Shown piece after piece: positions 3,001 through 6,000 of a stretch of DNA of 37,078 bases. Positions within the stretch are counted from its first letter, which is position 1. Each line of letters begins with the position of its first letter. The position numbers were made by a program. Source of the stretch: a virus (lineage: Duplodnaviria; Heunggongvirae; Uroviricota; Caudoviricetes); the IMG/VR virus record IMGVR_UViG_2537562172_000008; one strand, written 5' to 3'.

Positions 3001-6000
3001 AACCATCGACAGAAGGGTTTTGCATAGCATCGCGAGCACCTATCAGACTAACTCCCTGATGCATAACGTAACCGCCTCCGGTAACCGCGTATTCACGACC
3101 GTCCATATCTATAACTGTTGTGTTTTTGGCGTTTAATTTTGCGCTATCAAAAGCCCATTGCCAGTCCACTACGTCAAGAATATCGCTCACACCCTTGGAG
3201 GTAATAAAGTCTGTTAAGTTTAATTTGTATCCTGGGCGAATTGGATACCACGGTGCTGATGGGATAGATGGCAGATTTCCGCTACCACCGGTGTAGATTT
3301 TATTATTATACCACCACCAGTTATCAACATTAGATAACGCCCCCTCCCGCCATACACCGCCTAACGAGAAATCAAGGCCATATGCGGTGGCTACTTGACT
3401 TAACGATAATTTTGCTCCATCTGAGGCAGCCAACTGAATAAGAACATCAGAAGCAGAACCTGAAGGAGGCAAAACCACTAAAGGATTGCCGATACTATCA
3501 AATGCAACCATCTTATTAGCTCTGGTTTCAGCATCAGGCAAGGATATAATAACTTCTGGAACTCGCAGCGTGCGGATTAAGTTGCTGTTTGCGAGCGTAT
3601 CGACATAATTTTTGGTGGCGGCATCCTGCGGGTTGCAGGGATCGCGCAAATTGCGGATGCAGTTGTTCAGCGCGTCGTACCAGTTCGCAATGCTTGATGG
3701 TTTACGCAGAGCTAAGCGAAAAACGCTATATGCCCGCTGTATAAGCATAGTGAGCTTATCAAAAGCATCCTCATGCACTTCAGCAAAGAACTTACCTTGA
3801 TTGCGCAGATCGGTTTCCTGCGTAACTGGTAGCTCTCGAGATATAGAAATCTGATGACCGCTGGCCAATGCCTTCGACAAAATTACATTGCCACCGTTGT
3901 ATCCACCAGCCCCAGTGACAGTGTAATCAGTATCAAGAGCCAGCACAGCGATATTTTCATCAAGGTCAACCACCTGAACAACCAGGTCGGATTTTTTGAA
4001 AATGCGGAAGGTATACGGAAACGATGTCGTAACGCCATTGCCTGTGTATTCGTTGTGGTCAACTTCGGTTGAGACCGTCATGTTAAATCTCCAGATAGTC
4101 GCAGCACCCGTTGCGCCGCATATCTGGTTATTCTATTACCTGAAAAACCACATATGGATAGAAAGACTGTAAATACGAATAGATATTACCTTTCGGGTAA
4201 TTTACAAAACGTGCTGGATAGCAAACAAATTATTTGATACTGTATAAATATACAGTTATTGCATGGAGAAGATAAGATGCAGCAGTATCACTATCCACTG
4301 GAAGACGGATTTACCGAAAGGATTCACACGCCGGGAGGCGTCAGATCACTGGTGGAGGGATCGCACTTGATGAAATTACTCCGGGATCTCGATAAGGATG
4401 GATTTAATGTCGATGGCCCACTTGCCGAACTGACTGCACTGATTAACTACGTCACCAGCTCACAGATGTCTATGCGGGATCTGCAAACACATCTCGACTA
4501 TTGTGCCGAACAACTACGAAAACAAACCACATAAAGAAAAGGCCGCGAAAGCGGCCTGTGACATGTCACGCTCACGTTATGACAAGCCTATGTACCCTGC
4601 TACACCAGATAATATCAAAATAACTGCAACAGCAAATTCGCCATCGTCAATGATACATTTACGGTTCATAACGCCAAGTGCAACAAGCGCAAACACAACA
4701 AGAATAAAAGCAATCATTTCTCATCCTTATTGCGGAGTGACATCCTGAGGTCGCCACCAGTATGTCTGATTAAACTCTTTCTTCGAACGTTGCTCCATTT
4801 TACGCAAATAGCCTGGTGAAAAATACTCCTGCATCTGGTTAAAGATCATATGATCGAGAGCCGCCTTTAAGTACCAGAGATTCGCACCTGGCATCAAACC
4901 TTTCCCCAGCTTCACCAGATCACCACCAGTCTGCTCACTCTTCCCTTCCACAGCATTTAACGGTATGCCCTGAGCAATCTTCACTACGTCATCAACCAGA
5001 CCAGCTACCGGGCCAAGCATCGACGCCAGCGCGCCGCTTCCGTACCTAGTGTGATCTGACAATAAAAAGTCACCGTAAAGGCCAAGACCACCACCTTTCA
5101 GTAGAGCACCAAGCCAGAATTTTGCGGCATCTTCTCCTGTCATCTCTCGAGGATTACGACCAGACGCAAGGTCGTTAAGTTGCTGCGACAAAGCGCCAAG
5201 AATGGTCGTACTGACAATAAACGTCGCAATATATGCCGCACGACCACCAGCAGACGGCATACCCATAGCGCGTGACCAGTGACGCATAACAACCGAGATA
5301 GGGAACGATTTAAACAGGAAAACACTTCTCGTTAATTCACCTTTCCATGTTCCACGCTGAATACCAGAACCGGTTATCAGCTGCTCACGTGCTCCAGGTG
5401 TAATAACAGCCATATCAACTTCTTCAGTTACGGCACCGAGCAGTTTACGCATTGCCTCAAATTTCACGCGTTCAGGCTCACCAAGATGTTTAACTGCTGA
5501 ATCAGGGATACGCATAATGCTTTCCGGTGTCAGCATCGTATTATTGCCGTTCCCCCAGTCCTCCTGTTGCGCCAGCTTCCATACGCTCCAGTCTGTGTCA
5601 GTAATCCCTTTGCTTTTCAGGATGCGAAAATCAGAATCATCGAGGCTACGAAGGTCTGGTGTCCGTGACACTACTTCTCCCAGGCTTCCCATCATGGTTA
5701 CACCATAGGCGCGCTTGTGCGCATCTGACCATGCTGTAAGCCCACTGGCACGCATTACCGCCGTTGCCGCCCAACGAGACACTGACGGCCCCATATTATC
5801 CATCGCCCAGCGGTTAACGCTGCCAAGTAGAGATTCCATCGCCAGACCAGCGCGGCGCGCCCGCGCAAGTTCTGTACGGTTCGTTGGGTCCATAGCTTCA
5901 AGCTGGTTGCGGAATAACTGGTTCATTGGAAGGTTGGTCACCTTCGCAGACAGATACATGGTCCCAAGATCAGAGAACGATGACAGCAACGCGGAACCGA

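What the first reader, a model, noticed from the sequence alone, without database searches (positions are those of the whole stretch)
4186..4534. SOS-box-controlled small gene inserted antisense into the late operon, in a prophage whose repressor lacks an autopeptidase domain: candidate antirepressor induction module
Seen: a near-consensus LexA box (TACTGTATAAATATACAGTT, 18/20 to consensus, 4238-4257) sits between a TTGATA -35 candidate and an 85-aa ORF (GGAG RBS, ATG 4277). The gene is on the opposite strand to the 20-kb late operon and is wedged between the last late gene plus terminator and the tailspike gene. A repressor-type operator palindrome (4186-4200) shares the same intergenic region. 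Seen: the repressor candidate (29880-30464) is two HTH modules with no S24-like cleavage domain. Established: in phage 186/Fels-2 (Tum) and the Salmonella Gifsy prophages, non-cleavable repressors are inactivated by small LexA-controlled antirepressors encoded far from the immunity region. Inference: this is the induction trigger of the prophage, or another SOS-deployed effector; the protein matches no antirepressor I can recall, so it may be a new family.
Basis: partly seen in the sequence, partly recalled or inferred. Interest (0 to 1): 0.78.

Follow-up and report, generated by a model that had tools for sequence, protein, structure and literature searches.

The report
Known LexA-controlled phage antirepressor (Ant)

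Summary
A LexA box lies at 4238-4257 (18/20 to consensus). It is the only such site in 37 kb, and 0 of 100 shuffles gave one. It sits 20 nt upstream of an 85-aa ORF (4277-4534) that runs antisense between the late operon's terminator and the tailspike gene. The repressor (29880-30464) has two HTH modules and no S24 domain.

The inferred mechanism is correct, but the system is already known. The ORF is 87% identical to Ant of Salmonella phage SPC32H (PDB 5D50, "Anti-repressor protein", E 5e-47). The repressor is a full-length homologue of SPC32H Rep (5D50/5D4Z, E 4e-42). Gene order matches SPC32H exactly. The window is a phiV10/epsilon15-type Uetakevirus prophage, and its Rep is 100% identical to phiV10 p40.

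SPC32H and its non-lysogenising sibling SPC32N differ at two bases. One of them breaks this LexA box (ACAG to AAAG).

The palindrome at 4186-4200 is real. It belongs to a family of ten TTACC-N5-GGTAA sites (0.6 expected by chance) that flank the early promoters beside rep. It most likely serves the tailspike promoter.

Remaining value is small. The gene occurs in about 10% of complete E. coli genomes, always as "hypothetical protein". Its Rep partner is only 41% identical to the characterised one.

The parts
4277..4534 (+). ant: 85-aa antirepressor, orthologue of SPC32H Ant
   Evidence: PDB 5D50_E E 4.6e-47. 87% identity to SPC32H Ant. PHROG 450 E 1e-47. Same position as the annotated ant of KC911856.
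4266..4269 (+). GGAG ribosome-binding site, 7 nt before the ATG
   Evidence: Read from the sequence. Invariant in nine divergent relatives.
4238..4257 (+). LexA (SOS) box TACTGTATAAATATACAGTT
   Evidence: 18/20 to consensus and unique in the window; 0 of 100 shuffles gave a match. Conserved in relatives. In SPC32N the homologous box carries the ACAG to AAAG change.
4234..4239 (+). Candidate -35 (TTGATA) of the ant promoter, overlapping the LexA box; the -10 is uncertain
   Evidence: Conserved as yTGnTA in nine relatives. Not called by the sigma-70 scan. Inference only.
4186..4200 (.). Rep-type operator palindrome TTACCTTTCGGGTAA
   Evidence: One of ten TTACC-N5-GGTAA sites against 0.63 expected. 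Conserved in all nine relatives aligned.
4130..4158 (-). Candidate tailspike promoter: -35 TCCATA (4158 to 4153), 17-nt spacer containing a GGTAA half-site, -10 TAGAAT (4135 to 4130)
   Evidence: The block ATTCTATTACC...ATATG is conserved in nine relatives and was read on the - strand. Inference; below the scanner's threshold.
4540..4557 (-). GC-rich hairpin: intrinsic terminator of the late operon; on the + strand a hairpin 6 nt after the ant stop with no U-tract
   Evidence: Terminator scan. Fold -17.9 kcal/mol, z -4.5.
4577..4717 (-). Last gene of the late operon segment (46-aa membrane protein)
   Evidence: PHROG 7892. Equivalent to SPC32H_019. 84% identity.
1700..4081 (-). Tailspike gene, divergent from ant
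   Evidence: ORF list. N-terminal 110 aa are 85% identical to SPC32H Tsp. Synteny.
29880..30464 (+). rep: 194-aa repressor with two HTH modules and no autopeptidase domain
   Evidence: 5D50_A E 4e-42 over the full length. Only HTH families in Pfam. 100% identical to phiV10 p40.
29495..29725 (-). cro-like regulator, divergent from rep
   Evidence: PHROG 35. 75% identity to SPC32H_042.
29762..29824 (.). Three operators between cro and rep (29762-29776, 29793-29807 with 2 mismatches, 29810-29824); the cro-side promoter TTGTTA-17-TATTAT overlaps the first
30522..30598 (+). Early-left promoter TTGACA-17-AATCAT (30556-30584) bracketed by two operators (30522-30536, 30584-30598)
27417..27493 (-). Second promoter module of the same layout, with two operators 62 bp apart
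20784..20798 (.). Single operator about 90 bp upstream of the small gene that precedes the portal gene; same layout as upstream of the tailspike gene
23926..23958 (.). Two tandem operators immediately upstream of the small terminase start

Best explanation
This is the SOS-responsive induction switch of a phiV10/epsilon15-type (Uetakevirus) prophage. It is orthologous to the Rep/Ant system of Salmonella phage SPC32H.

In the lysogen, Rep (29880-30464) binds the TTACC-N5-GGTAA operators and silences the phage promoters. Rep cannot be cleaved through RecA because it has no S24 domain. Host LexA sits on the box at 4238-4257 and blocks transcription of ant.

DNA damage activates RecA, LexA cleaves itself, and ant is transcribed. 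The 85-aa Ant then binds Rep and releases it from its operators, which starts lytic growth. In SPC32H a tetramer of Ant captures two Rep dimers and breaks up the DNA-binding Rep tetramer.

Shown here: homology of both proteins, identical gene order, uniqueness and conservation of the LexA box, absence of S24, and the operator family. Taken from the literature on SPC32H: LexA control, Ant-Rep binding and its structure. Inferred: that the same holds for this Rep, which is only 41% identical to SPC32H Rep.

The operator at 4186-4200 most likely represses the divergent tailspike promoter rather than ant.
For: - **Ant homology.** 87% identity to SPC32H Ant, which was crystallised in complex with Rep.
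- **Rep homology.** Matches SPC32H Rep end to end. It has only HTH domains, and nothing S24-like is present anywhere in the window.
- **Gene order.** The order tsp(-), ant(+), 46-aa gene(-), 824-aa gene(-) is the same as in KC911856, where the gene is annotated ant.
- **LexA box.** Unique in the window. It is the only LexA-like site in each of five Uetakevirus sequences and always lies upstream of ant. It is kept in 78 of 79 IMG/VR loci.
- **Natural mutant.** SPC32H and SPC32N differ at exactly two bases, and one destroys the right half of the box. This fits the published account, which I recall but could not open, that this mutation makes Ant constitutive.
- **Literature.** Searches report that the SPC32H antirepressor is made after LexA cleavage and that tetrameric Ant binds two Rep dimers.
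- **Operators.** TTACC-N5-GGTAA is the top palindrome in all five sequences. It brackets or overlaps the promoters next to rep.
Against: - Rep here is only 41% identical to SPC32H Rep. The C-terminal half, which binds Ant in SPC32H, is 38% identical. Ant-Rep pairing in this phage type is therefore untested.
- No convincing -10 for ant was found.
- No experimental data exist for the E. coli version. The one paper on a close E. coli relative (ZX5, PMC9782041) studies a different, Bro-N protein as 'the anti-repressor' and never mentions this gene.
- The two primary SPC32H papers could not be read here.
Confidence: 0.9

Rival explanations
1. The gene is SOS-induced but does not act on this Rep. 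It has drifted to another target or role, and induction of phiV10-type prophages runs by another route.
For: The Rep C-terminal domain is only 38% identical to the one Ant binds in SPC32H, while Ant itself is 87% identical. Related phages carry extra antirepressor-type genes next to ant: Bro-N, P22_AR_N with Arc/Mnt, and pRha.
Against: This window has none of those extra genes and no S24 domain, so no other route is visible. Ant, its LexA box and Rep co-occur in every relative examined. Ant's 87% identity simply matches its neighbours (84-93%).
Confidence: 0.05
2. The palindrome at 4186-4200 is a second control on ant itself. Under this reading ant is repressed jointly by LexA and Rep, which would give positive feedback once Rep starts to fall.
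For: The operator lies midway between the two divergent start codons, about 70-75 bp upstream of either putative transcription start. Tetrameric Rep could bridge to another site.
Against: In SPC32N a single change in the LexA box separates it from its lysogenising sibling. From my recollection of Kim & Ryu 2013, that change is enough to make Ant constitutive, so Rep does not hold ant off by itself.

The site is 38 bp upstream of the -35 candidate and does not overlap the promoter. The same operator-plus-half-site layout recurs upstream of another late gene that has no ant beside it. That points to the late (tailspike) promoter as the target.
Confidence: 0.2
3. The LexA-box match is a chance AT-rich palindrome with no regulatory role.
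For: No binding data exist for this sequence, and the sigma-70 scan called no promoter here.
Against: 0 of 100 shuffles gave a match. The site is conserved in position in relatives down to 65-70% Ant identity while its flanks diverge. The natural SPC32N mutation lies in the homologous box.
Confidence: 0.01

Closest known systems
Rep/Ant of Salmonella phage SPC32H (Kim & Ryu 2013, J Virol 87:11775; Kim et al. 2016, PNAS 113:E2480; PDB 5D50, 5D4Z)
   Same: Ant is 87% identical, with the same length to within 1 aa. It has the same position and orientation between the tailspike gene and the late operon. The LexA box sits at the same distance from the ATG. Rep is homologous over its full length, with two HTH modules and no S24 domain. 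The TTACC-N5-GGTAA operator family occupies syntenic sites.
   Different: Rep is only 41% identical (N-terminal domain 53%, C-terminal domain 38%). The host is E. coli, not Salmonella. The LexA box is closer to consensus (2 mismatches against 3). No experiment exists for this variant.
Tum/CI of coliphage 186 (and Fels-2)
   Same: Same logic: a non-cleavable repressor is inactivated by a small LexA-repressed antirepressor encoded away from the immunity region (literature).
   Different: I found no sequence relationship. Ant matches no Pfam family. Phage 186 is a P2-like myovirus with a different repressor family.
Gifsy prophage antirepressors GfoA/GfhA (Lemire et al. 2011, PMC3121763)
   Same: LexA-controlled antirepressors act by protein-protein contact on non-cleavable repressors, with possible cross-talk between prophages.
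   Different: Lambdoid siphoviruses with unrelated proteins. Cross-talk has not been tested for Uetakevirus Ant.
P22 Ant / immI (Mnt, Arc)
   Same: An antirepressor gene located in the late region, far from immC.
   Different: P22 Ant is large, is controlled by Mnt and Arc rather than LexA, and is not needed for SOS induction. A P22_AR_N plus Arc cassette does sit next to ant in a Klebsiella relative, but it is absent from this window.

Membership tests
SPC32H-type Ant (small LexA-controlled antirepressor of Uetakeviruses) | Full-length sequence homology to SPC32H Ant (about 86 aa) | tested here: met
   5D50_E E 4.6e-47, residues 2-85 against 3-86. 87% identity by BLASTP.
SPC32H-type Ant (small LexA-controlled antirepressor of Uetakeviruses) | Gene lies between the tailspike gene and the late operon, on the opposite strand | tested here: met
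   Identical order in KC911856 and OQ921333. Same in Klebsiella, Pluralibacter and metagenome relatives.
SPC32H-type Ant (small LexA-controlled antirepressor of Uetakeviruses) | LexA box just upstream of ant, at its promoter | tested here: met
   The box at 4238-4257 aligns with the SPC32H box. It is the only such site per sequence. The SPC32N mutation falls in the homologous box. The exact overlap with the -10/-35 elements is not resolved.
SPC32H-type Ant (small LexA-controlled antirepressor of Uetakeviruses) | Cognate Rep: two-HTH repressor without an autocleavage domain | tested here: met
   5D50_A E 4e-42. Pfam shows HTH families only. No S24-like hit in the window.
SPC32H-type Ant (small LexA-controlled antirepressor of Uetakeviruses) | Ant physically binds Rep and releases it from DNA | not testable with these tools
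   Known for SPC32H only. Here the Rep C-terminal domain is 38% identical.
LexA (SOS) regulon of Enterobacteriaceae | CTGT-N8-ACAG palindrome close to the 20-nt consensus | tested here: met
   18/20 to consensus; 0 of 100 shuffles gave a match.
LexA (SOS) regulon of Enterobacteriaceae | LexA binding and DNA-damage-dependent expression | not testable with these tools
   Needs EMSA or ChIP and expression data.
Lambda CI / LexA-type autocleavable repressors (Peptidase_S24) | C-terminal S24 serine-lysine autopeptidase domain in the repressor | tested here: not met
   No S24 hit at E <= 1. tblastn with LexA and lambda CI gave a best E of 0.99.
Pfam antirepressor families (Bro-N, ANT, AntA, P22_AR_N, KilA-N) | Match to any of these domain models | tested here: not met
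   Pfam gave only a sub-threshold DUF724 hit and NCBIfam gave nothing. The Ant fold does recur as the C-terminal domain of Bro-N proteins in relatives. PHROG 1760 'anti-repressor' matches at E 7e-7.

The most novel reading that the evidence does not exclude
Ant travels with the conserved virion module (87% identity), while its Rep partners belong to immunity types only 41% identical (38% in the Ant-binding domain). One SOS-induced Ant may therefore inactivate heteroimmune Uetakevirus repressors, allowing trans-induction and cross-talk in polylysogens.

Rep may also directly silence every operon, including the tailspike, portal, terminase, lysis and integrase genes, through about ten dispersed TTACC-N5-GGTAA operators rather than through a lambda-style cascade. 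The operator at 4186-4200 would then tie the tailspike promoter, and possibly ant, to Rep.

I could not establish whether either point is already in the SPC32H or epsilon15 papers, which were not available.
Probability: 0.3. Interest if true: 0.4.

Novelty: already known. Interest (0 to 1): 0.15.

Why it matters
The finding is a correct blind rediscovery of a published switch, so it opens no new biology. Its practical value lies in annotation.

- The gene is present in 531 of 5,426 complete E. coli genomes, always labelled "hypothetical protein".
- It has no Pfam or NCBIfam model, and PHROG 450 is marked "unknown function".
- A 2022 paper on a close E. coli relative assigned the antirepressor role to a different, Bro-N protein.

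Naming this gene correctly would help predict which E. coli prophages are SOS-inducible. That includes phiV10-type phages of O157:H7 that alter the O-antigen.

Tried and rejected
- **Primary papers not available.** Kim & Ryu 2013 (PMC3807360), Kim et al. 2016 (PMC4983836) and the epsilon15 genome paper (PMC2698709) are not held. Details of the SPC32H mechanism therefore come from citing papers and my own recollection. I checked the recollection by comparing the SPC32H and SPC32N sequences directly.
- **Operator motif in the literature.** A full-text search for the motif found nothing relevant. I have a vague memory that an ATTACC...GGTAAT operator consensus was noted for epsilon15, but could not verify it.
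- **ant promoter.** The sigma-70 scan found no + strand promoter upstream of ant. Several alternative hexamer pairings read by eye were no better, so I leave the -10 unresolved.
- **IMG/VR scan.** It returned 305 relatives, but the 80 kept are 98-100% identical. They were useful only for showing that the box persists. Divergent relatives had to be fetched one by one.
- **Covariation test.** Testing whether operator sequence covaries with Rep type was not possible, because every relative examined uses the same TTACC...GGTAA motif.
- **Rejected readings.** The TTG start at 4259 (91 aa) and the 126-127-aa extended ORFs found in some databases and in PAS61. Both would run through the RBS, the LexA box or the operator, and they are not conserved.
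- **Ruled out.** A Bro-N or P22-type antirepressor in this window: none is present.

Full report

Yes, in every particular.

- **LexA box.** The sequence at 4238-4257 is TACTGTATAAATATACAGTT. It has two mismatches to the 20-nt LexA consensus. It is the only site in the 37-kb window within three mismatches, and none of 100 dinucleotide-preserving shuffles produced one. The bare core CTGT-N8-ACAG occurs three times, but the other two copies lack the AT-rich spacer and flanks.
- **ORF.** GGAG lies at 4266-4269 and the ATG at 4277. The ORF ends at 4534 and encodes 85 aa.
- **Position.** The gene is on the + strand. It sits between the tailspike gene (1700-4081, -) and a 46-aa gene that ends the late operon (4577-4717, -).
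- **Terminator.** A GC hairpin at 4540-4557 is followed by a T-run only on the - strand. It is therefore mainly the late operon's terminator.
- **Promoter.** TTGATA at 4234-4239 overlaps the start of the box, as at the recA promoter (my own knowledge). The -10 that would follow is weak, and the scanner called no + strand promoter.
- **Palindrome.** TTACCTTTCGGGTAA at 4186-4200 is perfect.
- **Repressor.** The product of 29880-30464 gives HTH hits in both halves and no Peptidase_S24 hit.

**2. What is it?**

The 85-aa protein matches one solved structure: chain E of PDB 5D50, "Anti-repressor protein" (E 4.6e-47, aligned end to end). The repressor matches chain A of the same entry, "Repressor" (E 4e-42 over residues 1-190), and also 5D4Z.

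Both proteins belong to Salmonella phage SPC32H. In its GenBank record (KC911856) the genes are annotated ant and rep. The local order there is tsp, ant on the opposite strand, a 46-aa membrane protein, then an 824-aa protein. This is exactly the order in the window. Ant is 87% identical to SPC32H Ant and Rep is 41-42% identical to SPC32H Rep.

The window is a phiV10/epsilon15-type Uetakevirus prophage of E. coli.
- The best DNA match is phage PAS61 at 95%.
- Rep is 100% identical to phiV10 p40.
- Ant corresponds to phiV10 p24, which is annotated as hypothetical and similar to epsilon15 gp19.

**3. Evidence that the LexA box is functional**

- An alignment of the ant-tsp intergenic region from nine relatives was made, reaching down to about 65-70% Ant identity (Klebsiella, Pluralibacter, metagenomes). 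It shows conserved islands in otherwise diverged sequence. These are the tailspike start, an ATTCTATTACC...ATATG block, the palindrome, a CTGG, the yTGnTA hexamer plus LexA box, GGAG and the ATG.
- Each of five Uetakevirus sequences (the window plus four phage genomes) has exactly one LexA-like box, always about 37 nt upstream of ant.
- Of 79 IMG/VR loci, 78 keep the box.
- Most tellingly, the deposited genomes of SPC32H and SPC32N differ at exactly two bases. One converts the right half of the box from ACAG to AAAG. This agrees with my recollection of Kim & Ryu 2013, which I could not open, that a single change in the LexA site makes Ant constitutive and forces lytic growth.
- Open-access papers confirm the outline. 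The antirepressor is made after LexA self-cleavage (PMC7380047). [quoted passage not shown]

**4. The palindrome**

- **Frequency.** TTACC-N5-GGTAA occurs ten times in the window (eight perfect copies) against 0.63 expected. In an unbiased count it is the most frequent 5+5 palindrome in the window, SPC32H, phiV10, Tyrion and an epsilon15-like phage. Each has 8-11 perfect copies, and the next best palindrome has no more than 4 (3 in the window) once register-shifted readings of the same motif are set aside. The sites are at syntenic intergenic positions.
- **Next to rep.** Three sites lie between cro and rep, and one overlaps the cro-side promoter TTGTTA-17-TATTAT. Just past the rep terminator, a near-consensus promoter (TTGACA-17-AATCAT, 30556-30584) is bracketed by two sites 62 bp apart. 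The downstream site covers the -10/+1 region. The same module recurs at 27493-27417. This is classic repressor-operator geometry. It also fits a tetrameric Rep that binds two palindromes.
- **In the ant-tsp region.** The site lies about 105 bp upstream of the tailspike ATG. Downstream of it is a conserved candidate promoter (TCCATA-17-TAGAAT on the - strand) whose spacer carries a GGTAA half-site. A nearly identical arrangement lies upstream of the small gene that precedes the portal gene.
- **Which promoter does it serve?** I infer that the operator mainly silences the tailspike promoter. A role at ant is less likely for two reasons. The site does not overlap the ant promoter. In addition, the SPC32N genotype, as I recall its published phenotype, indicates that loss of LexA control alone releases ant in the presence of Rep.

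**5. Caveat on transferring the mechanism**

Ant's 87% identity to SPC32H Ant matches its structural-gene neighbours (84-93%). Rep is an outlier at 41%: 53% in the N-terminal DNA-binding half and 38% in the C-terminal half that binds Ant in SPC32H.

There are two possibilities. Ant may tolerate very different Rep surfaces, which would imply cross-immunity antirepression. Alternatively, the pairing differs in detail. Either way, Ant-Rep binding for the phiV10 type is inferred, not shown.

**6. Novelty**

The system is already known. What is missing is annotation.
- There is no Pfam or NCBIfam model.
- PHROG 450 is labelled "unknown function".
- NCBI's annotation pipeline (PGAP) calls the gene "hypothetical protein" in all 531 of 5,426 complete E. 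coli genomes that carry it.
- A 2022 study of the E. coli relative ZX5 took a Bro-N protein to be the antirepressor.

**7. Verdict**

Novelty: already known. Interest is low (0.15). A modest residual question remains about cross-immunity action of Ant and the dispersed Rep regulon.

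Noticed in passing
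window 4186, 20784, 23926, 23944, 27417, 27479, 29762, 29793, 29810, 30522, 30584 (15-bp sites): A genome-wide family of TTACC-N5-GGTAA palindromes (ten sites against 0.6 expected), often in pairs 18, 48 or 62 bp apart. They sit at every operon boundary and are conserved at syntenic spots in SPC32H, phiV10, Tyrion and an epsilon15-like phage. This looks like a dispersed Rep regulon that also covers late, lysis and integrase genes.
   Followed up: partly
L005 (Tyrion) 20417-21121; L004 (phiV10) 19646-20230: The Bro-N 'anti-repressor' of Tyrion has a C-terminal domain (residues 153-230) that is 40% identical to the whole small Ant (E 3e-20). phiV10 p23 keeps only a stub of it. The Ant fold is therefore also used as the C-terminal module of Bro-N proteins encoded right next to ant. 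This may explain the activity reported for ZX5 ORF4.
   Followed up: partly
L087 4470-7155; L088 4284-6349; L090 4294-4989; L004 19551-20415: The gap between ant and the late operon is a hotspot for cargo genes. It carries other antirepressor-type cassettes in relatives: P22_AR_N with two Arc/Mnt-like genes in Klebsiella oxytoca, Bro-N, and pRha. The window and SPC32H have the minimal, empty form.
   Followed up: no
window 4082-4260 and 20694-20800, - strand: The regions upstream of the tailspike gene and of the small gene that precedes the portal gene share a module. It consists of a full operator, then 29 or 41 nt, then CATATGTGGTT-N5-GGTAATA. This looks like a common late-promoter design with a half-operator in the spacer.
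   Followed up: partly
L087, L088, L090, L091, just upstream of ant: In the most distant Ant relatives the left half of the box reads ATGT instead of CTGT (TATATGTATATATATACAGTA). LexA control may be weaker or different there.
   Followed up: no
L002 1755-2135 (PAS61); P0014, P0017, P0020, P0027-P0034; L005 21439-21603: There are many database mis-calls of this gene. Versions of 126-127 aa start upstream and read through the operator and LexA box. A 54-aa truncated call in Tyrion starts at an internal Met, although the full 86-aa ORF is intact.
   Followed up: partly
window versus L003, whole genome: Strong mosaicism relative to SPC32H. The 824-aa virion protein is 93% identical, Ant 87% and Cro-like 75%. 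The major capsid protein is only 42%, Rep 41% and the DnaT-like replication protein 26%.
   Followed up: partly
window 21121-21197 (+): A tRNA-Arg(TCT) lies on the strand opposite to the late genes, beside a gp49/Sf6 gene 66-like ORF (21396-21767). This is the same spot where SPC32H has its tRNA-Arg.
   Followed up: no
window 291-1121 (-) and 1093-1641 (-): Downstream of the tailspike gene is a sub-threshold Wzy_C (O-antigen ligase/polymerase-like) membrane protein and an unknown 182-aa ORF. They sit where SPC32H and phiV10 carry O-antigen acetylase genes, so this is probably a serotype-conversion cargo of a different type.
   Followed up: no
L003 versus L092, position 20147: The second of the two SPC32H/SPC32N differences falls in codon 5 of the tailspike gene (ACT to ATT on the coding strand). 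Its significance is unknown to me.
   Followed up: no
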